A stretch of 64,000 nt of DNA from a virus. The notes below the pieces were generated by a model. That model searched no databases. It was not told where the DNA came from and worked only from the letters and a program-made list of their open reading frames with translations. The DNA is taken from positions 32,001 to 96,000 of IMG/VR virus record IMGVR_UViG_3300037391_000010, one strand, 5' to 3'. The position numbers and the translations under genes were made by a program. Below are positions 20,691 through 53,500 of the stretch, in pieces; the stretch's first letter is position 1; each line of letters starts with the position of its first letter.

Positions 20691-21752
20691 ATGGCAAACG
20701 TAAAGAAAGCAGATCGTGAGGCAGTTCGCAAGGCTATTGTAGCCCGTCGCGAAGCCCGTAAGACCGAAAAAGTGGCTCAATACGCCAAAATGCGTGAGAC
20801 CGCGAAGTCCCCGGCGAAGTTCGCCAAGGTTCTCGATGAACTCGTAGCAAAGACCGCTCGTCAGGCTGACAGCATGGAAGCCCTCCGTCACAACCTCGGC
20901 CTCGCGAGGGTCGCCAAGGACGCTCCCGCCAAGGTTCGCGTTGCAGCCGCCCAAAAATACGGCAAGAAGTTTATCCGTATCGCCGAAGAGCAGCCCGACA
21001 TTCTGGCTGACGCCCTCCAGCAAGCCTACAAGGGCTTGGATGAGCAGGCAGCGGCCATGGAAATCGCAGCCGAAGCTCTGGGCATTGACCTCGGTGCAAC
21101 TCCCGCTGAGAAGGCATTCACCGACGAAGGCAAGCACGAACTTGAGCTTGGCGAAGACAAGGGCGAAGCCGTAGCCGAAGCTGAAGGTCCTGACTTTGAA
21201 GCGCAGGAAGAGACTGAAGCCGAAGCTGACGCCGAACCCGCAGACAAGCCCGAAGAAGAGAAGGAAGCCGCCGCAGGTTCCGACGCTTTCAGTACCGACC
21301 GCGATCCATCAGGCAACCCCAAGGCACCGCAGAAGGCACAGAGCCCACGGGCTCAAGGCGAAGCTTTCAAGAATTCCGCAGAACAGCCCAAGGGTGTAAC
21401 GCAGGAATTCACCATCGCCCCGCATTCCGAAGGCGCTGAGAAGTTCGTGAAGAACATCCCGCAGGCTCAGGGCAAGGAAGCAGGCAACAAGCTCAGCGCA
21501 ATGAGCAAGAAGGATTTCATTGCTCTGGCGGACGCCATCAAGAATATGAGCGTCGGCCCTGATGAGAAGCGCAACATCGCCGAAGGGTTGTGCAGCACGC
21601 TTCGCGCATCCAACCCACGTTTCATGAAGGAACGCTTCATGGGCTACGTGATGGGCGAGAATGGTCCGAGCGGCGGTGCAGTAAAGCCGATTGGACAGCC
21701 GCGTAAGTCGCGTCCCGCTCCGATCACGACTGCCCCCGCTGAAGGCATGTAA
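20691..21752 (+). CDS. Putative head scaffold/internal protein with an appended MSKKDFIALADAI module
   Basis: SD GGAGG; helical Ala/Lys/Glu-rich N-half, acidic linker, KxA motifs. Confidence 0.6.
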   Translation: MANVKKADREAVRKAIVARREARKTEKVAQYAKMRETAKSPAKFAKVLDELVAKTARQADSMEALRHNLGLARVAKDAPAKVRVAAAQKYGKKFIRIAEEQPDILADALQQAYKGLDEQAAAMEIAAEALGIDLGATPAEKAFTDEGKHELELGEDKGEAVAEAEGPDFEAQEETEAEADAEPADKPEEEKEAAAGSDAFSTDRDPSGNPKAPQKAQSPRAQGEAFKNSAEQPKGVTQEFTIAPHSEGAEKFVKNIPQAQGKEAGNKLSAMSKKDFIALADAIKNMSVGPDEKRNIAEGLCSTLRASNPRFMKERFMGYVMGENGPSGGAVKPIGQPRKSRPAPITTAPAEGM

Positions 21753-22012
21753 TGTTCTTCGTCTTCACAGGTGAAGAATACTACCCGGGAGGCGGCTGGA
21801 GCGATTTCCAAGGCACTGCCGAGACCATTGAGGCCGCTCGCGCTCGCGTTGAGGCCGTCATGGGCAACGATGACTGGTATCATATTGTGGACGCCTCTTC
21901 ACTGAAAATAGTCGAGGAAGGCTCCATCAAAGACGTAACCACCTACGATCCCTACGAAGAGAAACGTCAGGCCGTTCCCGCCACAGGCGGCGAAGGCTAC
22001 CATGGCGTATAA
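21752..22012 (+). CDS. Small phage protein (YYP-x-GGW-x-DF type)
   Basis: TAATG coupling; EEYYPGGGWSDF...DWYHIVD. Confidence 0.7.
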   Translation: MFFVFTGEEYYPGGGWSDFQGTAETIEAARARVEAVMGNDDWYHIVDASSLKIVEEGSIKDVTTYDPYEEKRQAVPATGGEGYHGV

Positions 22013-22017
22013 GTAGT

Positions 22018-22087
22018 TGAAAACAAACCAAATATAGTCAAAATTTCCTATCGTTTCCGACCCATTTTTGGGTATAATAGGGACATG
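22018..22087 (+). promoter_or_regulatory. Conserved promoter module copy 1, leaderless start
   Basis: TTGAAAACAAA-x-CAAATATAGT...TTCCTA-x-CG...TTTTTGGGTATAATAGGGAC-ATG, near-identical to 23528..23597. Confidence 0.8.
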
Positions 22088-22393
22088 GACGCAACCAAAG
22101 CACTGCTCATCACTCTGTTTCTTGCGGTTCCAGCCTTCGCGCAGGAGCCGCGTGGCACGATCAAACCCGCCGATCCCGTATCCGCCGCGACCCACGAAGT
22201 GACCGCGCTCGGCGGCGACTGCATGGACAAGCCCGTCGTTCTGCCTACCCCGCTCCCCGTCCTGAGAATCTCTCTGGGCGAATACGCACGCCAGATTCGA
22301 GCGCAACACGCCGCCGCACCCAAGGCCGCGAAGATCGTCAACAACGACAAGTTTGACGCGGAAGCCGAACTCGAAGCGAAGGTGACGAACTAA
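22085..22393 (+). CDS. Exported protein with a signal peptide
   Basis: MDATKALLITLFLAVPAFA-QEP (AxA cleavage site). Confidence 0.7.
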   Translation: MDATKALLITLFLAVPAFAQEPRGTIKPADPVSAATHEVTALGGDCMDKPVVLPTPLPVLRISLGEYARQIRAQHAAAPKAAKIVNNDKFDAEAELEAKVTN

Positions 22394-23465
22394 TGGTGCA
22401 ATGTCAAAGCTGCGGAGCATGGGCTGGTCGCTACGAGGGGTTTGCAATCCTCCGTAGGTGGTTCAAGTGTCTATCGTGTTTCCACGTTTGGAGTGTGGGC
22501 TAATGGAGATCATCATCATCGAACACGCTTTGGGTTCTTGGACGGTCGAAGTCCTGACGGGCTGCATGGACATTCCCGAGGGATGCAAGGATTGGGATTC
22601 GTTCGGTCGCGGCTTCAAGTACAAGGGGCACGCCGTGGCTTACCTCAAACGGATGGCGAAGAACTCGCCTGACCACGGTTCACGTTGGGTCATCTATGAA
22701 TTCCAGCAACGTTGGTTCGTTGCTATGAGGGTCAAATAGCATGGAAAAGCTTAAGCCAGTCAAGAACGACATCGACACGATTCTCTGGTGCGGCCCTGCC
22801 GCGATCTCTGCGGTAACAGGGGAGCCCGTCAGCAAGGTCATCACCACGATGAAGCACCTGAGTGGCAAACGGTGCATCAAAGGCGTCAGTACGGGGCTCA
22901 TGCAGCGCACGCTGACCATGTTGGGGTGGGAAGCCCTCACCATTCATCGTTTCGACCGCACAAAGGCTCCCTACGGTCAAGCAGCCCCTATTCGCTTAGC
23001 TGATGGCTCGCGTGTAACGGTCATCACTGGCGGCGAACACAACTATGTGGAAGCGAAGCAACGCCCCACGCTGGCACGCTACTGCCGCCAGCACCGCGAA
23101 GACTTTCAAGAGCACGCCTGCATCGTTGAGACCACGGGGCATTATGTCGCAGTCTACGGACGTAGGTTCTGCGACAACTTCACCAAAGAGCCAGTGTTCT
23201 TGCGTAAGTCACCCCACCGCCGCGCTCGCGTCCAGCGGGTACTTCAAATCAAAAAGGTCGGTGGCCCCGACTGGAAACCCAAGACAGACGCTTGGGGGAG
23301 GAGCAACGTATGATGAACACCGCAGCGAAGCTGATACTGGCGACCAAGATCGCCGAAGCAGTCCAGAGCAAGTACAATCTGAGCACGGGGTTTCAACTCA
23401 CCGAGGAGAGCGTTGACACCAACGAACTCGTCCTGACCATCGCAGAGCAGTTGGACGGCATCTAA
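22393..23465 (+). CDS. Four coupled small hypothetical genes (22393-22503 Zn ribbon, 22503-22739, 22741-23313, 23310-23465)
   Basis: TAATG/ATGA overlaps. 22741-23313 has WCGPAAI...GHYVAV-x-G-x-x-FCD, a possible C39/papain-like Cys-His-Asp set. Confidence 0.6.
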
Positions 23466-23527
23466 CGCCCGCGAGGATGACTCGCAGCGGGTGAGCGAAA
23501 GCAAAGATACCCGCTACGGTATATTAT

Positions 23528-23597
23528 TGAAAACAAAGCAAATATAGTGCTGAATTCCTAGCGATTCGAGCCTCTTTTTGGGTATAATAGGGACATG
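23528..23597 (+). promoter_or_regulatory. Conserved promoter module copy 2, leaderless start
   Basis: ~70-bp imperfect direct repeat of 22018..22087. Confidence 0.8.
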
Positions 23598-24389
23598 GCA
23601 AGCACACAAGTAACGTCGGACGGTCTAAGACAGATTTTGGACGCGCTGATTGCAGTCGTGGCGTCCAGTGGAAAGCTCGGAACTCCGGGCGGAACCCTCT
23701 ACGCATACCTGATGACGCAGGGATGCACCCTCCAACAGTTTGAATCTATTATGGGTGCTCTGGTTCAGGCACGAAAACTCATGAAGCGTGGCGACCTGTA
23801 CTTTGCACTGGAGGCGAAAATGAGCGAGTACACACAGTATCCTGACGACGTAGTGATGGAGACCTCCATCGGTCAAGTCAAGCTGGCGGTCACCGACGCC
23901 AACCACATTTCCATTCAAGGTGAAGTGGTGATCCGGGGCAAACAGGTTCGCGCCCACCTGCACGTCAACGATTATGGCTGCGGTGTTGGCTTCGAGCCGA
24001 GCCGCGATCAGTCCAACCCCTCGAACTCCTATCACGCCCTGTACGCGACCAAGGTCGGTACGTGCGGCGAGTACGCGACGGATGCACAGCGCAGGGCGAT
24101 CATTGCCGCTCTCGTCCCCGCGATCAACGAATTCATGGCGAAGCACCCCGAATTGCGGCAGGCTGGTGCGGACGCCGACAAGAACAACACCGCGATGCGT
24201 ATCGAGGAAGAGATTGTCGAACTGAAAAAGCAGCTTGCGGCGAAGGAAGAGGAACTCCGCAGGGTGCATATCTCTGGACGGCAGTCAAGCGGCGTCGTGC
24301 AGTTCCCGTGCTGCAAGGCTTATGGCGTGGTCAACAAGAACCATGTGTGCCCCGAGCGGATGACTTTCGACAACGAGGTTATCAGCTAA
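23595..24389 (+). CDS. Hypothetical protein, apparently a fusion of two small genes
   Basis: Internal GGAGG + in-frame ATG at 23820. Confidence 0.65.
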   Translation: MASTQVTSDGLRQILDALIAVVASSGKLGTPGGTLYAYLMTQGCTLQQFESIMGALVQARKLMKRGDLYFALEAKMSEYTQYPDDVVMETSIGQVKLAVTDANHISIQGEVVIRGKQVRAHLHVNDYGCGVGFEPSRDQSNPSNSYHALYATKVGTCGEYATDAQRRAIIAALVPAINEFMAKHPELRQAGADADKNNTAMRIEEEIVELKKQLAAKEEELRRVHISGRQSSGVVQFPCCKAYGVVNKNHVCPERMTFDNEVIS

Positions 24390-27216
24390 TGAGCCGACGC
24401 ACAGACAGAATGTGGAAAGCCGCCGCCCGCGTGACGGCGCTCAAGGTCGAAGAGCCCACGTCCACCGTCTACTCGGTTCGCACTCTCAAGGACGAATTGC
24501 CGAAGGAATTCTTCGCTGAGTTCATGACGACGAACGCGCAATATGATCCCGCCCACCCCCAAGGTAAGCCGTCGCCTGCCGCCCTGTTGCTGGATGTTCA
24601 GGTCGTGCGTGAGTACAGCCGTGTGACCGACGAGGCTGGCTATAAGCCGTGGCCTGGTCCGCAGAAGGATGTTCACTGCTGGTGGGAACTGGAGAGCGGC
24701 AAGGCTGTGGGCTGGAACGAGAACCCGAGCAAGGGCTGGAGTTTCCCCGTCATCACCCTGCACAATCTCAAGGTCTGGAATGGTCGCGGCGACTACAGCG
24801 ATCTGGACGGGCATCTGTTCGTGTGCGCTGCGACCAAGAAGCAGGCCGTCGAGTTGATTAACAAAGCTGGATACAGTTGCGGCAGGATGAATTTGCGTGA
24901 ACTGAACGGATACTTCAACGAGGGTTGTTGGGGTCGGGACATGAACGGCATCGCGCAGGAAACTGGCGTCTGGTTCCAGTCTAAAGAGGATGCTTCGGCA
25001 CCATGCCCATGCGACATCCCATTTGGCGATTTCGATAAAGCGCATCAGGATGCGTGCCCGCGTAAACCACGGAGGCTTTTATGAAGCGCCCCAATTTCAG
25101 GAACCGAGAATGCCCGAAGTGCGGCGGCAAGATCGGCATGATCCGCCGCGAGGGATTCATGAACCTGTACGGCTGCGTGAGCAACACCCATGTGCAGGTG
25201 CAGGGCACCTACGGTTACCATCCTGACGACTTCCCCAAGAAGGCGAAGCCGATTCCACAGAAGGAAATCGACAAGTTCATCAGCACCATCCGCTACCCGA
25301 AATTCGCGGCCTTCGCGGTTGGCAAGCTAATGGCGAAATTCAAATTCACCCGTGAGCAGGCGACTGCCGCGTATAAAGCGAGGACAATATGAAGGCACTG
25401 AATGCGTTGTATCACTCTGAACGTGAATTGGGATTCGCACCAACCATTCTCATTCTGGCTTGTGTGCTCGTCCTCTTGCTCGGACACGCCCATGGGCAGC
25501 AAGCCGACCAGAAGTCGCCGACCGAAGCGGAGATCAAGGCGCTCTACAACATCCTCATGCCGCCCGCACCGATGTCTGAGCAGGCGCGGTCTTTGTTCGA
25601 TCCGAACTACGTGCCGCCTGTCAAGAAAGACGGCGTGATCGTGCGGGCGTACAAGTCCTACGATTACTCGCTCAAGCTGGACTACGCACGGAACTACTGT
25701 GCGGTCAACAAGCCGACCGCGAAGCACCCGAAGGTGCAGCGCGTGTACGTGAAGAATGGTGACATCTACGAGTGCGCGACCAAGACGATCACGCCAGCAG
25801 GCTCGAATTGAAAAACATCCGCTGGCACGTCGAAATGGTTGTGGCAATCGGGCTGATGTGCGTGGCTCTGGCGTTCTTCACGGTCTACTTTGGGGTGCGA
25901 GGAGAGGCGATCTAAATGGCTGGCAACTCAGGCAAGATGACGAACGAGGCTCTCGCCGCACGCGGCCCACGCATGGTGCTGGCACGGGTGGGCGCTAACG
26001 GTCAAGCCTATCGCGGCTTGGTGATCTACCGCGAAGGGCAGTGCCCGATCAAGGTGCCTTACTCGGTACTTGCAAAGTCGTACTCGTTGAGCTATCTTTT
26101 AAGGGTGGGAAAGGGAAACCAATGACCGCGCTGACAATAGCAATTTTCGATCTGCTGATGCTCCACTTTCTCTACGTGGCGGTCTCGCTGGTCGTGGGCA
26201 CTCTGGCGGCGATAGATGTCCATAAGGAAGGCAAATCCGTGCCTGTCATTGTGGTCGCGTCTCTGGTCTACGCCATGTTTTGGCTGCCGTTGCTCCTCGG
26301 CAAGATCGTGTCGAGGCAATTACGTCCGATGGGGTTGATAAAATGAGCAAGCGCAAGGAACGCCAAGCCGCACGCCCCTCAGCCCTCCTGAACTGGTTCG
26401 GGAAGGCACCACACCCGTCCGACTGCCTCGTGCACTGGCGGGACACCGTGGGCTATCGCGGCGTGGCAGACTTCGACGAGACGATTGCTCAGCTTCGTGC
26501 GGATTGGGATTTGCTCACCGCTACGGACGCGGGTAAGCTGGCTCTGGCTCGTCTGTTGAACGCTCAGTACGACAAAGCATGTCAGGAGCAGGCCGAACAG
26601 GACGCAGGAGACGACTTATGAAACCTGAATTGGAAAACAAGCTGGTAGACTTGCAGGCTCACCTACTCGAAAAGAACGATTCCAAAGGTCTCTTCCTGTG
26701 GGACGCCGTGCGGCAGGCGATCAAGCAGGACGACCAGTGGGAAGAGATTTTGGTCTGGGCTTCCAGTTGTCAGGCCGCAACCGCCGAGGGGTACGCCTAC
26801 AGGAAATCTGCATCCAAGGGCGAACGTACCCGCCACGCGACGATCTGCAAGAAACTTAGGGAGATGCTCGCGACTGGCTTGTTTAGAGAGCACCGAGGCC
26901 ACCAGCCGTTCCCGAGCGTCAAGCACGCTACTTTGAAGCGGCTGGAAGAAGCCGAAGCCGCCTGCATCAAGGCGAACGTATGATCTACGGGAACCGACAG
27001 CCATCCGCCGCCGAGATCAACGCGCACTTGAGCACGAAACTCAAGCGAGCGGTTCTCCATAGCTCCCCATCCCTGAAACTCCGCATCATCGCCGCTCGGG
27101 TGGGTAAGAAACGGGACGGCGTGAGCCCGCTGGAAGTCCAGATCATGGGCTACGAGTCGCACATTGACGGCGGCTGGAGCGCGGTGAGGCCGGATACCCG
27201 CATCGACCTGCTCTAA
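24389..27216 (+). CDS. Run of coupled small early-type genes (24389-25084, 25081-25392, 25389-25811, 25916-26125, 26122-26346, 26343-26621, 26618-26983, 26980-27216)
   Basis: Mostly ATGA/TAATG overlaps; includes a Zn-ribbon protein and membrane/exported proteins; no family recognised. Confidence 0.65.
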
Positions 27217-27262
27217 AAATAGTTCAGATTCCTAGCGATTTGGGCTCGGTGTGGGGTATAAT
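27217..27262 (+). promoter_or_regulatory. Conserved promoter module copy 3 (no ATG follows)
   Basis: AAATAGTT-CAGATTCCTAGCGATT...GGGGTATAAT. Confidence 0.65.
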
Positions 27263-27268
27263 GTAAGT

Positions 27269-27339
27269 GATAGTTTGCTGGTAACGCGGAAAACCAGTAT
27301 CGGGGTGCAGAGCCTAGAGCCTGCACCCTATTTCCTTTT
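27269..27339 (+). ncRNA. Candidate ~70-nt small RNA ending in a terminator hairpin
   Basis: Downstream of promoter copy 3; stems CTGGT/ACCAG and GGGTGCAG/CTGCACCC followed by TATTTCCTTTT. Confidence 0.35.
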
Positions 27340-28174
27340 AGGCCCCTTCGAACCTGCCGCAGTGAGATTGCGGCGTCCACCCGCAGCATCCCGCGTGACG
27401 GCTATCCCAATTGCTCTCGATGGAGTTCAGGTCGGGCTGGTAGGAGAAATACGGGGTTACACGGACAGGGAACGGGTAACGTTTGCCTTTGCGGTAGTTG
27501 TCCCACGCAATGGTGAGATGCCAGTTGCGCTCGTTCACTCGCAGGTTGAAGCCCACGGCTTTGACGCTCTGGAGGTTCCAGTTGATGTCAAAGGCTATGT
27601 TCGTCTTAGGCATGTAACCTTCTAGCAGCATCCGCCCAAGCCTCTTCGTAGGTGTCGCCCGTGCCGATGACAGGAGCATTGAGGGCGTCCGACTTGTAGA
27701 CTTCGCAGGCACACATCTCGGGGTGGGGGAAATTCTTCTTTGGCATCCACGCCCCAATACGTCGCCTTGGGGTAGACCTTCCAGACGGCCTGCTCATTGG
27801 CTCGGGCCTGCTTCTGGGTGATCTTAGGCAAGACGAGCTTCCTGCTTGTTGAGGGCTTCGGTGATCTTTGCAGCCTTGGTGCCGCGCAAGTCTTCGTTGA
27901 GGACGAAAGCGACGATGGTCTGCGACAGCTTGAGACCAGTGGCGATGCCAAATTGGGTCTTCCCCGCATGGCCTAGCTGAATGATTTTATCGACTGTGAG
28001 TTGATCCATACCTGCTCCTTATTCGTAATAGACGATTATGAAATACTCGCTGAAGCCGCCACGTCCTGACTTGACTACCGAGAAGATCGTGTAGCTCTGG
28101 CTCTGAAGGCTGTTGAGTCTGTCCTCCAGATCGTTGTCCTTGACCTCGGTCGTGTGCCACTTTCGAATCGCCAT
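27338..28174 (-). CDS. Four small minus-strand genes (28019-28174, 27824-28009 HTH-like, ~27606-27831 frameshifted, 27338-27613)
   Basis: SD AGGAG before 28009; overlapping stops and starts; KTQFGIATGLKLSQTIV HTH-like. Confidence 0.55.
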
Positions 28175-28185
28175 ACAGCTTAATA

Positions 28186-28929
28186 CTACCGATTTGCCCG
28201 ACTTACGAACATGTGGTCAAAATCAGGGTCGGTGATCTTAACCCTAAAGTCCCCCAGTATCGCAGGATCGGTGCGGTAGATGTTCCCGAGCTTCTGAACT
28301 TTCCGCTTCGAAAATCCTGTCCCGCTGGGGTTTGCCTTGTCAATGAGGGAATGGATGAACGCTCCCAACGCCTTCTCTTCTGGGTCCTTGGATTCCAGCA
28401 GTTGCTTGCTCGACCGACTCATCGCACGGCGGATGTCAGGGCGGTGGAGCTTGTGAATCTCGGCTACCCGCTGGAAGCTGCGGGTCTTGATGTACAGGTC
28501 GATGATCGTACTTAGGGGCACGCTCTTGATGCTGTTCTCCAGCTTCGCCTGCACCAGCACATTCTTCATCTTGTCCTCGGTGAATTCCTCCCCATACAGA
28601 ATGAACGCACACAGCACTTTGACCGCCATGCGGATGCGGAAGGAGCACACCGTCTGCGTGCTGCGGTGGATGATCGCCAGAGTGTTCTGGGTCTTGCTCA
28701 GCAGATAGTAGCTCAGCAGGAGTTCCTGATCCTCCTTCTTCAGGAGACGCAAAATCTTCAGGAACATTGGGAAATTCTCCTGAATGTAGGTGAGGATTTT
28801 CTGGTCTTCTTTTTTCTTGGGGTCGGACTCAGCACTGAGAAGTGTTTGGCCTTCAAGGGCTTCTTCGTCAGTCAGGAGCATGGCGCGGGCAGAAGTGATT
28901 GAATCGAAATACGGAGTGTTTTCAGACAT
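28186..28929 (-). CDS. Transcription regulator with two sigma-region-4-like HTH units
   Basis: LKKEDQELLLSYY...KTQNTLA...TQTVCSFRIRMA and IIDLY...SFQRVAE...RPDIRRAM. Confidence 0.55.
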   Translation of the reverse strand: MSENTPYFDSITSARAMLLTDEEALEGQTLLSAESDPKKKEDQKILTYIQENFPMFLKILRLLKKEDQELLLSYYLLSKTQNTLAIIHRSTQTVCSFRIRMAVKVLCAFILYGEEFTEDKMKNVLVQAKLENSIKSVPLSTIIDLYIKTRSFQRVAEIHKLHRPDIRRAMSRSSKQLLESKDPEEKALGAFIHSLIDKANPSGTGFSKRKVQKLGNIYRTDPAILGDFRVKITDPDFDHMFVSRANR

Positions 28930-28976
28930 GGTTATGGTATAATACTAAACCCATCGACATTTTTCGGGGTTTTTCC

Positions 28977-29005
28977 AAAATAAAACGGGCACCCGAAGGT
29001 GCCCG
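28977..29005 (-). terminator. Rho-independent terminator after 29027..30865
   Basis: Minus strand CGGGCACC-TTCG-GGTGCCCG-TTTTATTTT. Confidence 0.9.
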
Positions 29006-29026
29006 ATGTTGAGCCTGACCAGCGAC

Positions 29027-40762: not shown

Positions 40763-40763
40763 A

Positions 40764-42161: not shown

Positions 42162-42173
42162 GGCAGGAAAATC

Positions 42174-44641: not shown

Positions 44642-44656
44642 CGAAGGGGAACGAGC

Positions 44657-47600
44657 ATGGCTCAGAGCGGAAACACAGTCGCACTCAAGTCTTTCCAGTC
44701 ATTCATGGTGAACGATGGTCTTCTGTCGAAGGCTGTCGAAGCGATCAAGGCTGGCGAGAAGGAAGCCCGTAGTTCGGGCAACGTACAGTCCTTCGAAGTT
44801 TTCTACAAGGGCTTCCGTCAGAACATTGCCATCGGTCGTATCTACATCGTCCCCCCTTCCGTCGCCGACAAGAAGGGTCAGGATTTCCCGACCGCCCTGC
44901 TCTATGGCTGCCTCGTCCGCACCTTTGGTGGTGAGGAAATGGGCGACCTGATCTCTCACAAAATCGGTGATACGGAGTGGGATGAATATTCTCAGGCATC
45001 CTACGCATCAATCAAAGAAGAGTTGTTCGGCACCGAGGATGGCAAATTCGCTTCCCTCATCCTGTACGCCCCCAACTGGGTCAACAAGCGCGAATATCAG
45101 GGTTTCCAGTTCCCGAAAGACGACAACCAGCTTTCGAACCTGACCCGCCACGTGATCTTCAGTTCGTACTTCGACCCACGTCTGTCCAGCGCGTTCGACG
45201 CCCTGATGACCGATGTGGAAACGTCCAAGTTCGATGTAACCGACATCACGCCGAAGCTGAACCACCCCGCGTTGGCTGAGAACCCGTTGAAAGAGTTCCC
45301 GTTGCTGACCAAGGAGGGCTCGAAGAAAAAGCCTCGCCTCGGCCTGACCTTCAAGACCGCCGACGAAGTTACCAAGGAAGTGCTCGAACCTCAGGAGATG
45401 GATGTATTCGACTCTTTGGATCAGGCTCTCCGCAACAGCCTCCTGCCGAGCGGCACCAAGGGCGTTGAAGACGCTTCCGAGGGCAAGGCTCCGACAAAGG
45501 GCGAAGTTGTCCCGCGTCTCGCGGCTGTCGAATGCGACAAGTGCGAAGGTGACGGCTGCAAGTTCTGCAACAAGGGTGTCAAGAAAGGTTCCGCCACGGC
45601 GGTATTCGAGACCCCGATCACGAATGTGGGCCCCGGCACCGAAGCTCACGACGAAGCTAATCAGCGCACCGAAGGCTATAAGGCTGAGAAGGACACGCCG
45701 AAGACTGTTATCAACAGCGCACCAATCGGCATCGCTCTCGACGAGACTGGCGTACCACGCCGTGCTGAGGAAGAGCGTAAGGAAAAGTCCGCCACAACCA
45801 AAGTAGCACATGGCTACATCGCTTTCTACGGCGGGCGGCGTGTGGAAATCCACGCTGACTCCCTCTATGGGGCGAAGCTGAAAGCCATCGAGATGTTGAA
45901 GGTTCCGAAATCCAAGCAGGGCTTGCTCGCTGTTGAGCTTGCCGAGAAGGACGGAGAACAGGTCACCACGACGATCACTTCCGCCGACAAGCAGGCGAAG
46001 CGCGTCGAGGGTCTCACTTGTACGGGGGATGTCGAACGTCTCGCGGCACAAACTAAGAAGGGTGATCTAAGCGCATCCGCTAGTGCAGCTTTTGATGAAG
46101 TTCGCACATCGGGCAGTGGAAAGGCTTTGGATGAACACAAAGCTCGTATGAGAGAGTACGCCGCCAGCATGGGTCAGGACAATCAGGCTCATCACGCAGT
46201 AGCCGACCACAAGAAAGAGATTGCCGCAGGTAAGCACGGGCCGACTCCGCTGTCGATCTCCTCTTCGAAGCACAAGATCGCCTATGTTTCTCACGTTCCG
46301 GGTCACACTAACTCCAAAGGCGAAGCTGCTCCATGGGTTATCAAGCAGCACGACACGGACAAGATTCTCGAAAGTTTCAAGTCCGAAGGGGCTGCCAAAG
46401 AGGGCTTGAAGAACATGGAATCCCACAAGGGTTCCGCCGAGAACGACCCTCAGGCTGTTCGCGATCACATCAAGAAGAACGTCAGTCAGGCTCGTCAGGG
46501 TCAGGACGCTTTGAAGGATCACCACGCATCCTTCGACGCCGCCAAGTGGGGCGGACTGGGCAAGAAGCAGGCTTCTTCCCTGTGGGTTGGTACTGCCAAG
46601 AAGGTTGCCGCTGACTTCGACAACTTCACCCGTGGTTATATCGAGACCGCTCTGTGGTCTTCGAATGATGAGTCCGATCCAAGCGGCGGACAGCCGTTGG
46701 ATCAGAACTACGATATCCGCGATCTATCGCCGTCCTGCTTGAAGGCGATGAGCGAGGATTGTGCACAGTTCCAAGCGGAGAACGCAGAGCTTTTGGCTGC
46801 GGCATCCGAACAGGATGGTCAGGACGATTTCCGTCAGGGCAATGATTTCTGGCTCACCCGCTGCGGTCATGGTGCGGGCTACTGGGATGGCGATTACCCG
46901 ACAACGGGCGATGGCTTGACCGAGGCTTCCAAGGCTTGGGGCAACGTGGACATTTACGTCGGTGACGATGACATGATTTACCAGTTCGGAGCAGAAGACG
47001 CTGGCGAACGTGACCTCGGACAGGATCAAAAGGGTGGGCAGGTTCCGCCCGTGATCTCCTCCAAGAAAGCGTCCAAGAAGACCTCCTCGCAAAACGATGC
47101 GTCCTACATTGCCAGTTTGATTGGCGGTGGGTTTGGCGGCGAAGACTACGATGCTCGTTCGCAGCACTCCCGCACGGCTGCTCAGAAGCGTGAGGAAGAG
47201 ATGGCTCGTAAGTATTCCTCTCAGCGTAAGAAGTTCGCCGACGTTCCTCAGGACATCGACGATATCTGGTCTGAGACGATGGAAGACATGGGGCCTGCGC
47301 CTGAGATCAGACTTCCGGGCGAAAGCAAGGACAACGAAAAGTCCACCACGGGGGAACACGAGATTGAAGCTCCCGAGATGAGCGCGGATTCACGAAGCGA
47401 CGTTCCCGAGCAGGTCAAGGGCGATCAGGAAGAGCCGACCGTGGAGGTTGAAGAGGCTCTTGAGAACGACACCACCAAGTCCGAAGAGGACGAGCCGAGC
47501 ACTGGCGAAGGTGGGGCATCGGCAGACTCCGAGGAAACTTCGTCCGAGGGCGAATCTGAAGAGAAGTCCGAGGGTGATTCCAAGTCCGAATGGGCGAAGA

Positions 47601-50572
47601 ACCGCACCAAGGGCAAGTCCGAAAAGAAGGACGAGCCGAAGGAAGAAGAATCCAAGACGGCGGGCCGCAACGCCAGACCACGCGAGCGCGAGCGTGTAAA
47701 GTGCGACCAGTGTGAGATGCTGAGTATCAACGGTACGGCGACCCACGAAACGGGCTGCCCAAACCAGAATTCCCGCTGGGATGCTGACCGACAGGATTGG
47801 GTAAAGCAGCGTCGTTGCGGCGAATGCGGCATGGACGTTGACGCCGATGATCCGTGTTGTTCTGCGGAACCTGACTTCGACAACGGTTACGACGAAAACG
47901 ATGAGCATTTTGGTGGGCTCGATGCTATCCTCGCTGACGACACCGATGCAGTAATGGAGCAGGCGGAAGAAGCCGCAACAGCAGCCCCCGCAATATTCTA
48001 TGAGTGCGGAGCCTGCGGCGGCGTGCACCCGTCCTTGGAGACTTCCGAAAGGCTCGGTCTCGGTTGGAACGGTGATTGTCGTGATGAGGTTGGTCACTTC
48101 GAAGACAGCGACGTTCCTTACGGAGACAACACTCAGTTCGTCACCTTGGAAGAGCAGATGGCTCCAGACTTCGATGACGCGATTCTGGCGTCTAAGACTG
48201 CGGACTATGCCGAGGGCGACCTTGAAACTTACTTCGACGAAGGAAAGACGGCGGATTACGCCGAGGGCGATCTCGAAACCTACTTCGATGAGGGGAAGAC
48301 GGCAGACTACGCCGAAGATGATTTTGCATCTTACTTCGGAGAGGAAAAATCGGCGGGACGTTCCACCACACCGAAGTACGTCATTCGTATTCCGGGTTCG
48401 ACCGATGCGGCATGGAATGTGACTGGTTACGGACAACAGCGTGGTGCGGGCCAGCCAAACCAAGCGAACCTCGCACGGTACATGGAAGCTCTCTTGAAGA
48501 GCATGGAACCGGGCGGGCACAACGAGCATTTGGTGGGTCATTTCGACCCATCCGAAGCTGCGGTTTATCGCAACGACGGCACCTACAAGAACCCGTTGGC
48601 TACATGGTCGAAGGGTGAAGCGAAGCAGGGTGCGGATGTCTCGGGCGATTTCTCGGAAGCGCATTCCGAGGTTGACAGCCCAGACACCGTGGATCAGGAC
48701 ATCAAGCAGCCGACCGAATCGGTAGGCGAAGCTGGTAAGAGAAAGAACGCTGATGTGGCGGAAGAAACCAAGGAAGAGCGGGCGAAACGTCTGGAAGATC
48801 AGCGTCAGCGCGATGCTCGTGAACTGACACGTCGCAAGGCGGCTGACATCTCGGGGGACATCTCTGAGGCTGAGTCGAACACGGAAAGCCCTGACGGGGT
48901 GGACGCCGACATTAAGCAGCCTACGGTTTCGGTTCCCGAAGCGGCACGCAAGAACGCTAAGGTGGGATTCACGTTCAACGGACAGCATCGTGAAGCTTCC
49001 TTTAGCGATCTCACACAGGCGGGGAAGTTCATAGCGGTAGCATCGGCCAAGTTTGGAAAGTTGGCTGGTGACTGGACAATAAATGCAGCCGATGACGACG
49101 ATGCGGCAGAGGATCAGTCCGCTGATCCGAAGAAGCCCGCTAAAGCTGAACCAGCCGACGCAGAACCCGCTGAAGCTGAAGACAAACCAGCAGATGACGC
49201 GGCACCCGATGCTGAAGCTGAGGACAAGCCAACCGAACAGACTGATGAAACAAAGGGCAAGAACAAGCCCGCTGAGACACCTGCGGCGGATGCGAAAGCT
49301 CCAGCAGCGGCTCCCGCTGCGCCTGCGGCAGCACCAGCAGTTCCAGCAGCACCAGCCCCAGCAGCCGTAGCAGCCCCAGCGGGTGCGGGTGGAAACGGAA
49401 CTTCGGAAACTTCTGGCAACGAAACATCGACCGAAACTGGCGGCTCAAGTCCGGGTGGTGCATCAACTGGCGGCGTAGGTAGCGGCATGGGTGGTGCGGG
49501 TACTGGCGGGGCTGGCACAGGCGGGGCCGCTACTAGCACGGGCACAGGCGGTGCAGGCACAGGCGGAACCGTGAGCATCGCACCAACAAGCACGAACTCG
49601 GCGGGCGGTGATGAGGGCGGCGAAGGTGGTGAAGGTCAGGGCGGCGGGGCGAAAGACAAAACCCCAACCATCATCATTTACAACGGCGGCACGGGCGGTG
49701 CATCTACCGTCGATACTGACAGCGGTTCTGGACCGGGCGGCGATGGGCCGGGTTCTGACGGAACTGGCGGCACGGGCGAAGGCTCGGGTGGTGGTGGAGG
49801 CGGCGGCGGTGGACGTGGAACTCCACGCAACCCCGAACAGGCAGCGGATGCCGTATCTCCGGGCGTTGATAGCGATAATAGGCAGCAAGGTGATTTGGCT
49901 AAGCCACAGGGCAACCAATCAAAGGGTAAGCCTTTGGCAACGAAGCCTGAATCACAAGACGATCAGTTAAAAGGCAATGATGAGCCTTCGGCAGAGAAAC
50001 CAGAACTTCGTGGTGACGCACCTGTGAAGCCACAGAAGCCTGAGCCTCCGCACGAGGACGAGGCCGACACGAAAGAAGCTGCCGCAGGAATGCCAGCCGA
50101 AGTCGGGGAATTCCCGTATGTCGAAACGCTGGTAGGTATGGGCTGGAGCGACGAGGGCGATCCGGGGCACTTCATGCTCAATGATAGTCGCGTCGAAGTC
50201 CTGACGTACACCGATGGCTACGAAGTATACGTAGACGGCGAACTGTACGAGTCGGGCGATAACGTGGATGAACTTCAGAACACGCTGGAACTCGTTGCCG
50301 AACTTGGCACCGATGCATTAAATGCACATCAGGCAGCCGACCCCAGCGGGTATGCTCCGATGGATGCCGAATCTGCTCCCGAGAGTGATAAGGGCGGCGG
50401 TGGGGGCGGTCTTGCGGGACTAGCGGACATGGCCGAAGAGGTAGCACCCCTGTTAGCCTCTGAAAAAGAGGCATGTGCGGGCTACGGTGATGAAGAAGAC
50501 GAAGAACGTCCATTCGATCTCGGTATCGGTGATCTGGCGGACATAGTTGTGGAGACGGAAGATGCCAATTAG
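44657..50572 (+). CDS. 1971-aa cassette polyprotein with (K/R)xA-delimited modules
   Basis: Globular N-domain, then modules such as HGYIAFY..., DFDNFTRGYIETALWSS...DFWLTRCGHGAGYWD, CDQCEMLSING, plus acidic repeats and a Gly-rich linker. Confidence 0.75.
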   Translation: MAQSGNTVALKSFQSFMVNDGLLSKAVEAIKAGEKEARSSGNVQSFEVFYKGFRQNIAIGRIYIVPPSVADKKGQDFPTALLYGCLVRTFGGEEMGDLISHKIGDTEWDEYSQASYASIKEELFGTEDGKFASLILYAPNWVNKREYQGFQFPKDDNQLSNLTRHVIFSSYFDPRLSSAFDALMTDVETSKFDVTDITPKLNHPALAENPLKEFPLLTKEGSKKKPRLGLTFKTADEVTKEVLEPQEMDVFDSLDQALRNSLLPSGTKGVEDASEGKAPTKGEVVPRLAAVECDKCEGDGCKFCNKGVKKGSATAVFETPITNVGPGTEAHDEANQRTEGYKAEKDTPKTVINSAPIGIALDETGVPRRAEEERKEKSATTKVAHGYIAFYGGRRVEIHADSLYGAKLKAIEMLKVPKSKQGLLAVELAEKDGEQVTTTITSADKQAKRVEGLTCTGDVERLAAQTKKGDLSASASAAFDEVRTSGSGKALDEHKARMREYAASMGQDNQAHHAVADHKKEIAAGKHGPTPLSISSSKHKIAYVSHVPGHTNSKGEAAPWVIKQHDTDKILESFKSEGAAKEGLKNMESHKGSAENDPQAVRDHIKKNVSQARQGQDALKDHHASFDAAKWGGLGKKQASSLWVGTAKKVAADFDNFTRGYIETALWSSNDESDPSGGQPLDQNYDIRDLSPSCLKAMSEDCAQFQAENAELLAAASEQDGQDDFRQGNDFWLTRCGHGAGYWDGDYPTTGDGLTEASKAWGNVDIYVGDDDMIYQFGAEDAGERDLGQDQKGGQVPPVISSKKASKKTSSQNDASYIASLIGGGFGGEDYDARSQHSRTAAQKREEEMARKYSSQRKKFADVPQDIDDIWSETMEDMGPAPEIRLPGESKDNEKSTTGEHEIEAPEMSADSRSDVPEQVKGDQEEPTVEVEEALENDTTKSEEDEPSTGEGGASADSEETSSEGESEEKSEGDSKSEWAKNRTKGKSEKKDEPKEEESKTAGRNARPRERERVKCDQCEMLSINGTATHETGCPNQNSRWDADRQDWVKQRRCGECGMDVDADDPCCSAEPDFDNGYDENDEHFGGLDAILADDTDAVMEQAEEAATAAPAIFYECGACGGVHPSLETSERLGLGWNGDCRDEVGHFEDSDVPYGDNTQFVTLEEQMAPDFDDAILASKTADYAEGDLETYFDEGKTADYAEGDLETYFDEGKTADYAEDDFASYFGEEKSAGRSTTPKYVIRIPGSTDAAWNVTGYGQQRGAGQPNQANLARYMEALLKSMEPGGHNEHLVGHFDPSEAAVYRNDGTYKNPLATWSKGEAKQGADVSGDFSEAHSEVDSPDTVDQDIKQPTESVGEAGKRKNADVAEETKEERAKRLEDQRQRDARELTRRKAADISGDISEAESNTESPDGVDADIKQPTVSVPEAARKNAKVGFTFNGQHREASFSDLTQAGKFIAVASAKFGKLAGDWTINAADDDDAAEDQSADPKKPAKAEPADAEPAEAEDKPADDAAPDAEAEDKPTEQTDETKGKNKPAETPAADAKAPAAAPAAPAAAPAVPAAPAPAAVAAPAGAGGNGTSETSGNETSTETGGSSPGGASTGGVGSGMGGAGTGGAGTGGAATSTGTGGAGTGGTVSIAPTSTNSAGGDEGGEGGEGQGGGAKDKTPTIIIYNGGTGGASTVDTDSGSGPGGDGPGSDGTGGTGEGSGGGGGGGGGRGTPRNPEQAADAVSPGVDSDNRQQGDLAKPQGNQSKGKPLATKPESQDDQLKGNDEPSAEKPELRGDAPVKPQKPEPPHEDEADTKEAAAGMPAEVGEFPYVETLVGMGWSDEGDPGHFMLNDSRVEVLTYTDGYEVYVDGELYESGDNVDELQNTLELVAELGTDALNAHQAADPSGYAPMDAESAPESDKGGGGGGLAGLADMAEEVAPLLASEKEACAGYGDEEDEERPFDLGIGDLADIVVETEDAN
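48194..48346 (+). repeat. Three tandem 51-bp units encoding KTADYAE(G/D)D(L/F)-x-x-YF-x-E(G/E)
   Basis: Units 48194-48244, 48245-48295 and 48296-48346; units 1 and 2 have identical protein with synonymous differences. Confidence 0.95.
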
Positions 50573-53500
50573 CATTGAGAGGTTGCAGGCTGCCGCTCGC
50601 AGGGTTGGGGCGGACATCATGCACAGTGACGACGATCTGTCTCAGAAGCTCGAAACGGCGACCCCCTCGGCGGCGGAAGCTGGGCCGAGCCACGATGAGT
50701 TGGTTGAGAATTCCCACGACGAAAGCGGGATCAGCGTAATCGACGGAGAAATCCGTCCGCCTGAACGTCAGAATGTTTCAGCCGTCCGCGATGCCATTGA
50801 AGCGCAAGCTGAGATGGAAATCGGTAAATCCATCGGAGAGAAAGAAGAAGAGATGGAGGCTCGTGGCGACGGCCCTTACGGAGACAAGGAAGTCAAGGAC
50901 ACCACGACAACGACCATTGATGCTAAGCCCGGAAAGCAGATCATCATCAACATCGCAAAGGAAGTAGATCGAGGAATTTCGGTCGCTCCAACGCAAGCTA
51001 AGGGGATCGGCGGCGAGAAACAGCATCCGAGAGAAAATACCTCAAGCAATGGTATGTTTGGGGGTACGAGCTTGTCAGCAACCCCGAATTTTGAAAAGCA
51101 CTCCGAGGAGGGCACTCCAAGTCCCGATGTAGTTGCTCGGGTTCGCGGTCAGTACACATCTGGCATGGGGCGCAAGTCCTGCATGGAGCACTTCAAGATC
51201 ACCGAACAGCAGCTTGATGACATCCTCAGCGGGAAGTACGGCAAGGGAAAGATCGCCACATACCACGAACTCAAGGCGGCGTTTACCAAGAACGCACGTT
51301 TGTTCAACGAGACGGAACTCAGGCTGGCTGGGCAGGAATACCTGCACATGGTTCGTACCGCCGCGATTGGCGTGGCGCAGGGTCAAGACGAGCAGGGGTT
51401 CCACATGCTGCTGAACATGAATGGGCGTGAGTATGTCCTTCGTGGGGCGGATGCAGACAGTTTCCGTAAGGAGTACGCCGCGATTCCAAAACCCGAAGTG
51501 GCAGTCAACAAGCTTGTCGAAAAGTATCTATGGAAGATGCAGCCGTACCAGAAGCAGACCATTCAGCACCCACCGTCTGAAACGAAGCAAGACTCCAACA
51601 GTCAGGCTCTTCGTCGTCAGCGGTCAGAAGGATTGGCGGATGCCGATGCGTACTGGGGCGGCAAGGAAAAGGGACAGAACGATTACAAGCGGTACATGAC
51701 GCAGCACGCCTCAACCAAAATAGCCGCTGAGTCATACGCAGAGTACCAGAAGTTGGTACAGGAGCGTAGCCAGATCATCTCTCAGAACCGTAGCCGTCAG
51801 ATGAAAGGCCAGCCGCCCGCACCAGTGCCGCCGAAGCCCCAGCCGCCGATGGTTCCAGTGGCGTATGCGGCAGATGGGACGTATGAGGGTCGGCTGCAAG
51901 ACCCAGCAGATTGTCCGCCGGGTTGCAAGGTGAAGTGGGAGCCCGCTAAGGGAGCCAGCATGATGACCTTGGCTAAGATTGCAGGCGACTATTTTGGCTA
52001 CGATGACTGGATCACAGGTCACACTGCCCTGATGATTAACAATGACTCGGCTGGACTTACGACGCTGCACAACTTGACTCGCAGTGCCCTGAAGAAGAAA
52101 ATGACACCGAAGCAGTTGGCGGGTCAGTTTGCAAAGTTCTTCAAGAAGTTCGGCGAACAGAGCAAGAAGTTCTACGCGGAGAACGCTGAGAATGCCCGTG
52201 GGGAACGCGGGAAGCATGAGCGTGAGCAACTCGAAGGTGTGGTTAAGGCACCGAGCGGCGACAAGGCTCGCGATTTTGTCGATAGTCTGACCAACATGTG
52301 GTACGATGCGGGTGGACAGAGCGATTGGGAACAGCCGTCGAATGAAGTCAACTGGGAAGAGATCGCCACTGCGGAGATGGAATCCGAGCGTGCGGAGAAC
52401 CCAGACAAGTATCCGCAAACGAACAAGGAAGATGATAAGTTCATGGAAGGTGTGGGGATGAAAATGGAATCACTCAGAACAGCAACGGCAGTATTAGCAA
52501 GGGTCGCCGCCATGAGCGTAGGCGACAAACATCAGCTTCGCATCGCCATTGACTCCCTCAAGATGAACCCAGCTATGCTGGGCGTCATGGGTGGGCCAAG
52601 CAGAGAAGAAGCTTTGGAAATCTTAGCTAAGCACGATTTACGCTGGGACGAAACGGGGGGTAGGGTGATAAAAGCAAACGATAAGAAAGCTGCCGCTGGC
52701 TGTGACTGGCAAACTGAGTACGGAATGGGCGCTGGCGATGCTCGCTGTGGGCAGCCGACCACTGGCAATTCTCCGTGGTGTGCCGAGCACATTCAAGAGG
52801 CGAAGGACAACTACCCGCAACACGCCCTCCCAACCAAGAACGGCGGCGAGGGTGCGGTTAAGACCCCCGAAGAGATTGAAAAGGAAGCTGGCTTCAATTT
52901 TTTCTTCCCCGGTCAGGTACTCCGCGAAGTCGCTCCCGAGATGCAGCACGAACTCGTAGACTACCCCAACCAGACCAACACCCCGATGCAGTATCCTGAC
53001 ATCGTTGGCGACAGGGAAGAGGTTCCAGAAGAGATGGCTCTTGCAGCCGCTCTCGATGGCGCTCTCGACACAACTATCATCGCCTATGTGAGCACCAGTC
53101 CCGCCGCTGCCGCTGGTATCGGTCGCGATGGCAAGTCCGAAGTGCTTGAAGGTGCCCCGCTCCGCAAGGAAAACGATATCCGTGGTTTGATGTTCACGGA
53201 CGAGTTCTACGGTCAGCAAAGCGGCGTACCGGGTGCGGCATTTGCTTCGCAGGCCAAAGCCGCAGGATTTGCACGTCCGGGTTCGGCGTTCAAATACCTG
53301 AAGAGCCTCAAGCTGGGCAAGACCGCAGGTGCGGACGAAGCCAAGCAATTCTCGATCTTCCTTCAGTACGTTTGCGGTGAGATCGCGGCTACTCTCGTGG
53401 CGCTGTTCAAGGTCACCTATCGTCCGATGCTGAACCAAGTTCCGGGCAAGGGTGAGATTCAACTGGCTCAGGTCGAACAGCCGCAGGGTTTGTCGAGCTT

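What the first reader, a model, noticed from the sequence alone, without database searches (positions are those of the whole stretch)
21490..52650. Cassettes look like captured stand-alone small genes, some keeping their start Met
Seen: KLSA-MSKKDFIALADAIK...NPRFMKERF (ATG 21501) and RVAA-MSVGDKHQLRIA...MGGPSREEA (ATG 52512) begin with Met right after a junction. KVA-HGYIAFY... (~45809) and KVAA-DFDNFTRGYIETALWSS...DFWLTRCGHGAGYWD (~46613) read, from recall only, like free small phage proteins. Inference: whole early genes are recruited in frame into packaged polyproteins, moving their action to time zero of infection.
Basis: inference. Interest (0 to 1): 0.7.

Follow-up and report, generated by a model that had tools for sequence, protein, structure and literature searches.

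The report
Free phage genes fused into polyproteins
In this uncultured soil jumbo phage, four modules inside giant multi-module proteins are close relatives of small free-standing genes of many other phages, each sitting directly behind a short Lys-x-Ala tag. This fits the known idea that phages assemble delivered "polyvalent" proteins from solo genes, but cutting and packaging remain unproven.

Summary
All four named modules sit at the stated coordinates, each directly behind a K-x-A-type junction.

All four have free-standing small-ORF relatives whose ends match the module ends:
- MSKKDF module: free ORFs of 59-109 aa.
- HGYIAFY module: 58-62 aa, including N4-like phages.
- DFDNF...HGAGYWD module: phrog_1915, 112-150 aa, in over 100 cultured phages.
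- MSVGDKHQ module: 52-98 aa, in a domain family with 811 representative clusters.

The start Met is truly kept only in the MSKKDF module. It aligns with an unambiguous initiator ATG of free homologues and persists in fused orthologues down to 46% identity. The Met of MSVGDKHQ aligns with a conserved Leu. Met after a junction is not enriched overall (9 seen, 12.5 expected).

New evidence for capture is a clean cassette swap. Two relatives with about 90% identical flanks carry unrelated modules in one slot bounded by K-S-A and A-D-K-Q-A.

The carriers match two single proteins of Tunturiibacter phage Tunturi 5. Cleavage, packaging and early timing are inferred only.

Assembly from solo versions is already published for polyvalent proteins (Iyer 2017). 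This scan also reported the same thing on a related genome (e1-5810729). I class it as a new variant of a known kind, of moderate interest.

The parts
20691..21752 (+). P0002, a 353-aa carrier protein. Residues 1-134 are homologous to the C-terminus of Tunturi 5 gp345. An acidic linker follows, then the MSKKDF module at the C-terminal end.
   Evidence: E 2e-9 to gp345 residues 475-630. Orthologues in about 10 IMG/VR contigs keep the fusion.
21489..21500 (+). Junction K-L-S-A directly before the MSKKDF module.
   Evidence: Orthologues carry K-K-A-A, K-S-A-A, K-T-A or K-K-A at the same place, within otherwise diverged linkers.
21501..21749 (+). Module 1 (MSKKDF...GPSGGAVK, 83 aa). It is a fused copy of a free 59-109-aa phage gene and keeps the initiator Met.
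   Evidence: 54 free homologues; alignment A1. Of 37 IMG/VR loci, 31 are small ORFs. True-start evidence. The fused forms form one clade with support 100.
44657..50572 (+). P0003, a 1971-aa multi-module protein.
   Evidence: No Pfam family. Length and module content vary among relatives, 1318-2253 aa.
44657..45361 (+). Conserved N-terminal carrier domain of P0003 (residues 1-235).
   Evidence: 42% identical to the N-terminus of Tunturi 5 gp350 (E 3e-58). 61-92% identical in 13 IMG/VR loci.
45794..45982 (+). Swappable slot between K-S-A (45785-45793) and A-D-K-Q-A. It holds the HGYIAFY module here and an unrelated 56-aa module in relative L023.
   Evidence: Nucleotide identity of about 90% stops at the K-S-A codons and resumes at the A-D-K-Q-A codons.
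45809..45997 (+). Module 3 (HGYIAFY...ELAEKDGEQV), preceded by K-V-A at 45800-45808.
   Evidence: phrog_19202, E 8.5e-9, profile positions 17-60 of 61. Free 61-62-aa CDS in N4-like phages. A free 58-aa ORF in L169 has both ends within 3 residues of the module ends.
46610..47071 (+). Module 4 (ADFDNFTRGYIETALWSS...HGAGYWD...) plus its trailing linker, preceded by K-V-A at 46601-46609.
   Evidence: phrog_1915, E 6e-24, profile positions 6-139 of 141. 111 phage records. Free CDS of 127-150 aa. Of 80 IMG/VR loci, 50 lie in ORFs of 200 aa or less.
50562..53717 (+). P0004, about 1051 aa from ATG 50562, with a Shine-Dalgarno-like GGAG upstream. Its start overlaps the P0003 stop by 11 nt.
52509..52694 (+). 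Module 2 (A-MSVGDKHQLRIA...MGGPSREEA...), preceded by R-V-A at 52500-52508.
   Evidence: The profile search found 811 representative clusters, 24 of the top 150 under 120 aa. Alignment with free forms. IMG/VR contexts. The copies sit at different places in relatives' polyproteins.
52890..53714 (+). Conserved C-terminal carrier domain of P0004.
   Evidence: 44% identical to the C-terminus of Tunturi 5 gp350 (E 1e-51). 53-96% identical in relatives.
16063..16278 (+). A further module with free homologues, in P0001 (residues 476-547), between K-E-A and H-T-A.
   Evidence: phrog_7560, E 9.4e-7. Free 84-90-aa ORFs in Xanthomonas phage Xoo-sp13 and Pantoea phage Phynn.
19012..19323 (+). A further module with a free homologue, in P0001 (residues 1459-1562).
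   Evidence: 41% identical to the 132-aa Erythrobacter phage XM05_117. The match starts 2 codons after that gene's start.
2216..3175 (+). Major head protein (context). K-T-A and K-L-A occur near its N-terminus.
   Evidence: phrog_2522, E 3.5e-42; sequence.

Best explanation
The four modules are whole small-protein domains whose relatives circulate as free-standing 50-150-aa genes in many unrelated phages. In this Acidobacteria-type jumbo-phage lineage they are fused in frame into carrier proteins.

The carriers keep a conserved N-terminal and a conserved C-terminal domain. These match the two ends of Tunturi 5 gp350 and gp345. Between them lies a variable string of modules.

Each module is preceded by a (K/R)-x-A(-A/S) junction. 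Modules are gained, lost, moved and exchanged between relatives with breakpoints at these junctions.

The MSKKDF module was added once to the C-terminus of the P0002 ancestor, most simply by in-frame fusion with a free gene, which is why its initiator Met is still there.

The following steps are inferred and not shown:
- The junction is the cutting site of the phage's head maturation protease.
- The chains are loaded into the prohead and cut into separate small proteins.
- These proteins enter the host with the DNA and so act before any phage gene is expressed.
For: Free homologues whose ends match:
- Module 1.
- Module 3.
- Module 4.
- Module 2.
- Two P0001 modules.

Initiator Met of module 1:
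- In L046 an in-frame stop lies 3 codons upstream. In L045 there is an upstream stop plus an AGGAG.
- Seven IMG/VR loci have no alternative start.

Fusion and carriers:
- The fusion is conserved in independent assemblies, with variable linkers but a constant K-x-A(-A)|M.
- The fused forms are one clade.
- Tunturi 5 gp345 lacks the module.
- Carrier homology.

Module turnover:
- Table of module presence in relatives.
- Exact cassette swap with about 90% identical flanks.
- An extra zinc-ribbon module is inserted between two junctions in L028.
- For module 4 the free and fused states are interleaved on the tree: 9 changes by parsimony, at least 3 forced by well-supported branches.

Junction motif and context:
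- The motif is enriched in these proteins, 7-8 against about 1.3 per 1000 aa in most other ORFs.
- It is kept before the same domain in distant giant ORFs.
- A head maturation protease (phrog_18299, E 2e-14), a major head protein and a terminase lie nearby. K-x-A occurs at the protease ends and at the capsid protein N-terminus.
Against: - No cleavage, virion proteomics or expression data exist. The Tunturi 5 labels 'virion structural protein' and 'DarB-like' are Phold predictions.
- Only 6 of roughly 45 modules in the four proteins have demonstrated free homologues. Four others tested singly gave nothing among cultured phages.
- The trees are unrooted, so capture cannot be formally separated from release.
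- For modules 2 and 4 the closest relatives are modules of other large proteins.
- In this window the module 1 junction is K-L-S-A, not strict K-x-A.
- The modules have no known function: no Pfam family and no relative among solved structures.
Confidence: 0.6

Rival explanations
1. These are ordinary uncleaved multidomain (polyvalent-type) proteins. K-x-A is merely what Lys/Ala-rich flexible linkers look like, and the modules work while tethered.
For: Composition alone predicts about 3 K-x-A-small sites per 1000 aa against about 8 observed, so the enrichment is modest (and my own estimate). Some polyvalent proteins, such as N4 vRNAP, are packaged unprocessed. No cleavage data exist.
Against: The motif is kept at the same junction while the surrounding linker diverges completely. 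It sits 0-3 residues before the module N-terminus in five of six cases. It bounds the cassette swap exactly. It also occurs at the termini of the head protease and near the capsid protein N-terminus.
Confidence: 0.2
2. The direction is the reverse. The free small genes are fission products released from polyproteins, and the internal Met made this easy.
For: The trees are unrooted. For module 4 the free and fused states are interleaved. Module 2 lies mostly inside longer proteins.
Against: Free forms of modules 1, 3 and 4 occur in very diverse cultured phages (Mycobacterium, Klebsiella, Erwinia, Caulobacter, N4-like). The K-x-A polyprotein forms were found only in soil jumbo-phage contigs. The module 1 fused forms are a single clade on one carrier that lacks the module in Tunturi 5. 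Iyer 2017 reached the same direction for polyvalent proteins.
Confidence: 0.12
3. The retained ATG at 21501 is functional. The module is also, or only, made as a separate small protein by internal initiation, so the gene is expressed in two forms.
For: The Met is kept in all fused orthologues down to 46% identity. The free homologues start exactly there.
Against: There is no Shine-Dalgarno-like motif within 25 nt upstream of 21501, whereas 21 of 30 real starts in the window have one. About half of the free homologues begin MSM or MAM, so this Met is also a conserved internal residue of the domain. The upstream frame is open and homologous to a real protein.
Confidence: 0.1
4. The fusion is an assembly or annotation artefact. 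Module 1 is really a separate gene, and the fusion results from a missed stop or frameshift.
For: The sequence is a metagenome-derived contig, and the module sits at the very end of the ORF.
Against: The same fusion, with no stop, is seen in at least 10 contigs from different samples at 46-100% identity.
Confidence: 0.02

Closest known systems
Polyvalent proteins of phages and conjugative elements (Iyer, Burroughs, Anand, de Souza, Aravind 2017, J Bacteriol, PMC5512222)
   Same: Both are many unrelated domains in one polypeptide of a phage, encoded beside late or virion genes. The domains are also found as solo versions. The paper states that polyvalent proteins were pieced together from solo versions under selection for coeval action at invasion.
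   Different: The modules here are tiny domains of unknown function (40-150 aa), not recognised conflict enzymes. No MPTase or other peptidase domain lies inside the chains. The joints carry a uniform K-x-A tag shared with head proteins, pointing to the prohead protease as the processing enzyme. Cassette exchange occurs exactly at the tags.
Phage T4 internal proteins IPI, IPII, IPIII and Alt: capsid-targeting sequence removed by prohead protease gp21 (established knowledge, not tested here)
   Same: Non-structural effector proteins are loaded into the prohead, trimmed by the head protease at a short consensus also used on capsid and scaffold proteins, and injected with the DNA.
   Different: T4 uses one short N-terminal tag per separate small protein and cuts after L/I-x-E. 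Here many modules are chained on a large carrier, and the motif is K-x-A. Neither loading nor cutting has been shown.
Phage P1 Dar system (DarB, DdrB) and the 'DarB-like' label of Tunturi 5 gp350
   Same: Both are large head-packaged anti-restriction proteins encoded near virion genes. The carrier ends of P0003 and P0004 are homologous to Tunturi 5 gp350, which carries that label.
   Different: The label is a Phold prediction. I found no methyltransferase or helicase domain and no Pfam hit at all.
phiKZ-like jumbo phages: head protease gp175 processing of many inner-body and ejected proteins at S/A/G-x-E (established knowledge)
   Same: A jumbo phage whose head protease processes many internal head proteins at one short motif.
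   Different: The motif differs. The phiKZ substrates are separate paralogous proteins, not chains of captured foreign modules.
PHROG families phrog_1915, phrog_19202, phrog_7560 (unknown function)
   Same: Modules 4 and 3 and one P0001 module match these profiles over nearly their whole length.
   Different: Members of these families are free small proteins. Here the domain is embedded in chains of about 2000 aa.

Membership tests
Polyvalent proteins (Iyer et al. 2017) | Many (2-15 or more) unrelated domains in one polypeptide of a phage or conjugative element | tested here: met
   about 8-20 modules per chain, and their combinations vary between relatives.
Polyvalent proteins (Iyer et al. 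2017) | Constituent domains also occur as solo versions in related mobile elements | tested here: met
   Six modules have free homologues.
Polyvalent proteins (Iyer et al. 2017) | Domains are recognisable conflict effectors (anti-restriction, methylases, ADP-ribosyltransferases, nucleases and the like) | tested here: not met
   The four proteins have no Pfam family at E<=0.01. The four modules have no relative among solved structures. Other scan notes report ADP-ribosyltransferase domains in a different 5484-aa protein of this genome, which I did not test.
Polyvalent proteins (Iyer et al. 2017) | Embedded processing peptidase (MPTase or similar) | tested here: not met
   No peptidase family was detected in the chains.
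Polyvalent proteins (Iyer et al. 2017) | Genomic context among late or virion genes, with transfer into the host alongside the DNA | tested here: inconclusive
   The context criterion is met: capsid protein, protease, tail sheath and terminase lie nearby. Transfer is not testable with these tools.
T4-type prohead-protease-processed internal proteins | The phage encodes a prohead maturation protease | tested here: met
   Genome 27942-28898 (about 3.1 kb upstream of the window) matches phrog_18299, head maturation protease, E 2.2e-14.
T4-type prohead-protease-processed internal proteins | The same short cleavage consensus occurs in capsid, scaffold, protease and cargo proteins | tested here: inconclusive
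   K-x-A is seen at both ends of the protease, densely in the adjacent 731-aa scaffold-like protein (13 sites) and near the capsid protein N-terminus. No cleavage has been mapped.
T4-type prohead-protease-processed internal proteins | Presence of the processed products in virions | not testable with these tools
   The Tunturi paper reports no virion proteomics.
phrog_1915 | Significant full-length match to the family profile | tested here: met
   E 6.2e-24, residues 651-775 against profile positions 6-139 of 141.
phrog_19202 | Significant match to the family profile | tested here: met
   E 8.5e-9, profile positions 17-60 of 61. The variable first 16 positions are not matched.

The most novel reading that the evidence does not exclude
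A lineage of soil jumbo phages runs a standing 'gene-to-cargo' conversion system. Free small host-takeover genes are repeatedly fused behind a Lys-x-Ala head-protease tag on two carrier proteins. They are exchanged between phages as tag-bounded cassettes, cut free inside the capsid with near-native N-termini, and injected with the DNA. The module list would then be a ready-made catalogue of proteins that must act before transcription starts, and it would assign an 'immediate-early' role to several widespread phage families of unknown function.
Probability: 0.35. Interest if true: 0.75.

Novelty: new variant of a known kind. Interest (0 to 1): 0.55.

Why it matters
Small phage proteins of unknown function are the largest unexplained part of phage genomes. 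Four such families appear here, one with more than 100 cultured-phage members and one with more than 800 representative clusters. They sit as tag-bounded modules of probable virion cargo, which gives a concrete, testable hint that they act at the very start of infection.

The exact cassette swap between near-identical relatives also shows how such chains evolve. The cultured relative Tunturi 5 offers a system in which cutting and packaging can be measured directly.

The general principle is already published: polyvalent proteins are built from solo versions. The value here lies in the mechanism (protease-tag joints, cassette exchange, a retained initiator Met) and in the leads it gives for orphan families.

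Tried and rejected
- **Nucleotide search of 14 kb against cultured phages:** no match.
- **Pfam on the four proteins:** nothing.
- **Module 2, early searches:** the word-index search at near length and tblastn against cultured phages both found nothing. Only the profile search found the family.
- **Pfam on ten module 2 family members:** no family covers the domain.
- **Profile searches of the four modules against solved-structure sequences:** nothing meaningful.
- **AlphaFold models of the two carrier domains:** mean pLDDT was 52.6 and 44.1. That is too low for a fold search, so I ran none.
- **Four further modules searched singly against cultured phages:** no match.
- **PHROG scan of the remaining P0003 and P0004 modules:** only chance-level hits.
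- **Paralogues of the modules elsewhere in the genome:** none, only internal repeats.
- **Programmed frameshift joining P0003 to P0004:** rejected. The relative frame of the second ORF is +1 in some relatives and -1 in others (coordinates), and P0004 has its own GGAG-ATG start.
- **Met after junctions as a general signature of capture:** rejected, 9 observed against 12.5 expected.
- **Internal initiation at ATG 21501:** no Shine-Dalgarno-like motif upstream.
- **Replacement module of L023 and the module before module 4:** no PHROG family.
Full report
**What is there**

The window is part of a 155-kb phage contig. Its only cultured relative in the phage collection is the Acidobacteria jumbo phage Tunturiibacter phage Tunturi 5.

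Four large ORFs carry the features in question:
- P0001, 14638-20646, 2002 aa.
- P0002, 20691-21752, 353 aa.
- P0003, 44657-50572, 1971 aa.
- P0004, 50547-53717. Its real start is probably ATG 50562, behind a GGAG.

None has a Pfam family.
- Met271 of P0002 is ATG 21501, after N-K-L-S-A.
- Met656 of P0004 is ATG 52512, after R-V-A-A.
- His385 of P0003 is at 45809, after T-K-V-A.
- Asp653 of P0003 is at 46613, after K-K-V-A-A.

**Module 1 (MSKKDF..., 21501-21749)**

A near-length search found 54 free proteins of 59-109 aa. In the alignment their first residues, MSKKDFIALA, are invariant and coincide with the module's first residues. Their ends coincide with GPSGGA(V/R)K.

Of 37 IMG/VR loci, 31 are small open frames and 6 are orthologues of P0002. 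A search among longer proteins returned only P0002 orthologues.

The Met is a true initiator in free genes:
- L046 has an in-frame stop three codons upstream.
- L045 has an upstream stop plus an AGGAG.
- Seven IMG/VR loci have no other in-frame start.

About half of the free forms begin MSM or MAM. The residue is therefore also a conserved part of the domain.

The free genes lie in runs of small co-directional ORFs, one run next to an integrase.

In fused orthologues down to 46% identity the linker changes completely. The junction stays K-x-A(-A) followed by Met: K-K-A-A|M, K-S-A-A|M, K-T-A|M, K-K-A|M. One relative (L028) has an extra zinc-ribbon module inserted between two junctions just upstream.

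The fused forms are one clade with support 100. Tunturi 5 gp345, whose C-terminus is homologous to P0002 residues 1-134 (E 2e-9), ends without the module.

No Shine-Dalgarno-like motif precedes ATG 21501, whereas 21 of 30 real starts have one. The simplest reading is a single in-frame fusion of a free gene to the carrier's C-terminus.

**Module 3 (HGYIAFY..., 45809-45997)**

It matches phrog_19202 (E 8.5e-9, profile positions 17-60 of 61). It also matches 61-62-aa CDS of N4-like Achromobacter, Erwinia and Pseudomonas phages, which lie between an ATPase gene and a metallopeptidase-domain or HNH gene.

A free 58-aa ORF in IMG/VR locus L169 begins M-N-K-YIAFY and ends a few residues after ELAE. 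Both ends fall within three residues of the module ends. Two loci carry the domain inside 507-aa and 631-aa frames.

**Module 4 (DFDNF...HGAGYWD, 46610-47071)**

It matches phrog_1915 over the whole profile (E 6e-24) and 111 cultured-phage records. The CDS are 127 aa (Klebsiella KP2025), 130 aa (Cronobacter JC01) and 150 aa (Mycobacterium phage Ariel gp233). In Caulobacter phage C2 the domain is the C-terminal part of a 218-aa protein.

The ORF sizes of the 80 best IMG/VR loci are:

| ORF size | Loci |
|---|---|
| 200 aa or less | 50 |
| 200-400 aa | 11 |
| Over 400 aa | 19 |

The last group includes other giant ORFs of jumbo-phage contigs, in which the domain is again preceded by K-x-A.

On the tree the free and fused states are interleaved: 9 changes by parsimony, at least 3 forced by well-supported branches. 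The window's copy groups with other fused copies. The ESM Atlas neighbours are viral proteins of 114-128 aa.

**Module 2 (MSVGDKHQ..., 52509-52694)**

Single-sequence searches failed. A profile of six lineage copies found 811 representative clusters at E<=1e-3.

Of the top 150, 24 are under 120 aa with the domain filling most of the protein. The rest are multidomain proteins of 130-1500 aa. In IMG/VR, 7 of 25 non-orthologous loci are free 52-83-aa ORFs.

In the free forms the consensus is L-(S/T)-V-P-E-K-H-Q-L, with the start Met 0-6 residues upstream. The module's Met aligns with that conserved Leu. Distant polyprotein copies have Leu there or a different N-terminal extension.

So the module boundary matches the free N-termini, but the Met is not a retained start.

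**Beyond the four**

Two P0001 modules also have free homologues:
- Residues 476-547 match phrog_7560 and 84-90-aa ORFs in Xoo-sp13 and Phynn.
- Residues 1459-1562 match the 132-aa XM05_117.

Four other modules searched singly gave nothing among cultured phages. Free ancestry is therefore shown for about 6 of roughly 45 modules.

Met after (K/R)-x-A is not enriched in the lineage: 9 seen against 12.5 expected at 559 sites.

**Carriers and turnover**

P0003 residues 3-262 match the N-terminus of the single 1080-aa Tunturi 5 protein gp350, and P0004 residues 779-1055 match its C-terminus. P0001 residues 12-181 and P0002 residues 1-134 match the two ends of gp345. gp350 itself has K-x-A joints and a different middle.

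Thirteen IMG/VR relatives keep the N-terminal domain at 61-92% identity. Their chains, however, range from 1318 to 2253 aa with different modules:
- Module 3 is present in three relatives and absent from L023.
- Module 4 occurs only in the close clade.
- Module 2 sits in either the first or the second ORF.

The sharpest result is the comparison of the window with L023. The flanks are about 90% identical at the nucleotide level up to the codons for K-S-A and again from A-D-K-Q-A. Between them the window has module 3 and L023 has an unrelated 56-aa module.

**Mechanism**

The K-x-A-small motif occurs at 7-8 per 1000 aa in these chains, against about 1.3 per 1000 aa in most other ORFs. Nearby genes include:
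- a head maturation protease (phrog_18299, E 2e-14), with K-I-A near both of its ends;
- a motif-dense, scaffold-like 731-aa protein;
- the major head protein (phrog_2522), with K-T-A and K-L-A near its N-terminus;
- a terminase.

This fits cutting by the prohead protease inside the capsid, as T4 gp21 does with its internal proteins (established knowledge). Nothing here measures cutting, packaging or timing. The Tunturi 5 annotations are structure-based predictions without proteomics.

**Comparison and novelty**

Iyer et al. 2017 (PMC5512222) state that polyvalent proteins were pieced together from solo versions under selection for coeval action at invasion.

What differs here:
- uniform protease-type joints instead of an embedded peptidase;
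- very small modules of unknown function;
- cassette exchange exactly at the joints;
- a documented retained initiator Met.

This scan has already reported the junction system in this genome (e1-5828083, e1-5828109). It also reported 'captured genes' on a related genome (e1-5810729).

Noticed in passing
window 14638-21752 and 44657-53717; L005 2597-4600 and 8001-11243: Each pair of adjacent ORFs (P0001+P0002, P0003+P0004) corresponds to one single protein of Tunturi 5 (gp345, gp350). The chains have been expanded with modules and split into two genes. The second ORF overlaps the first by 10-70 nt in all relatives, but its relative frame is +1 in some and -1 in others. This argues for coupled separate genes rather than a programmed frameshift.
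   Followed up: partly
L028 (IMGVR_UViG_3300048823_000044) around 8900-9000: In this P0002 orthologue, a roughly 40-aa CxxC...CxxC zinc-ribbon module sits between a K-T-A and a K-K-A-A junction immediately before the MSKKDF module. It is absent from the window, so it is a module insertion at a junction.
   Followed up: no
window 48194-48355: Three tandem 17-aa repeats (TADYAEGDLETYFDEGK). Each ends in K-T-A or K-S-A, as if a mini-module together with its junction had been duplicated.
   Followed up: no
window 52509-52694 and proteins P0071-P0220: The module 2 domain (L-S-V-P-E-K-H-Q-L-[RK]-I-A...M-G-G...E-E-A) defines a large family with no Pfam model: 811 representative clusters. It occurs free, at N-termini and inside long phage proteins, and is a candidate for a new domain definition.
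   Followed up: partly
window 21276-21350 and genome 24330-24404 (about 7.6 kb upstream of the window): A 25-aa stretch of the P0002 linker (SDAFSTDRD...APQKA) is 80% identical to a stretch of a 491-aa protein encoded near the protease gene. Another note of this scan suggested a targeting tag.
   Followed up: no
window 46283-46609 with L052, L059, L060: The module before module 4 (YVSHVPGH...) precedes the same domain in several distant giant ORFs. Some modules therefore travel as two-module blocks.
   Followed up: no
window 21501-21665: Module 1 also gives a weak match (E 2.6e-4) to positions 686-738 of the 1237-position profile phrog_2922. The domain may be embedded in another family of large phage proteins.
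   Followed up: no
window 49142-50080: About 310 residues of Ala/Pro/Gly/Thr/Ser-rich low-complexity sequence in P0003, including long G-G-x runs. Its role as spacer or otherwise is unexplained.
   Followed up: no
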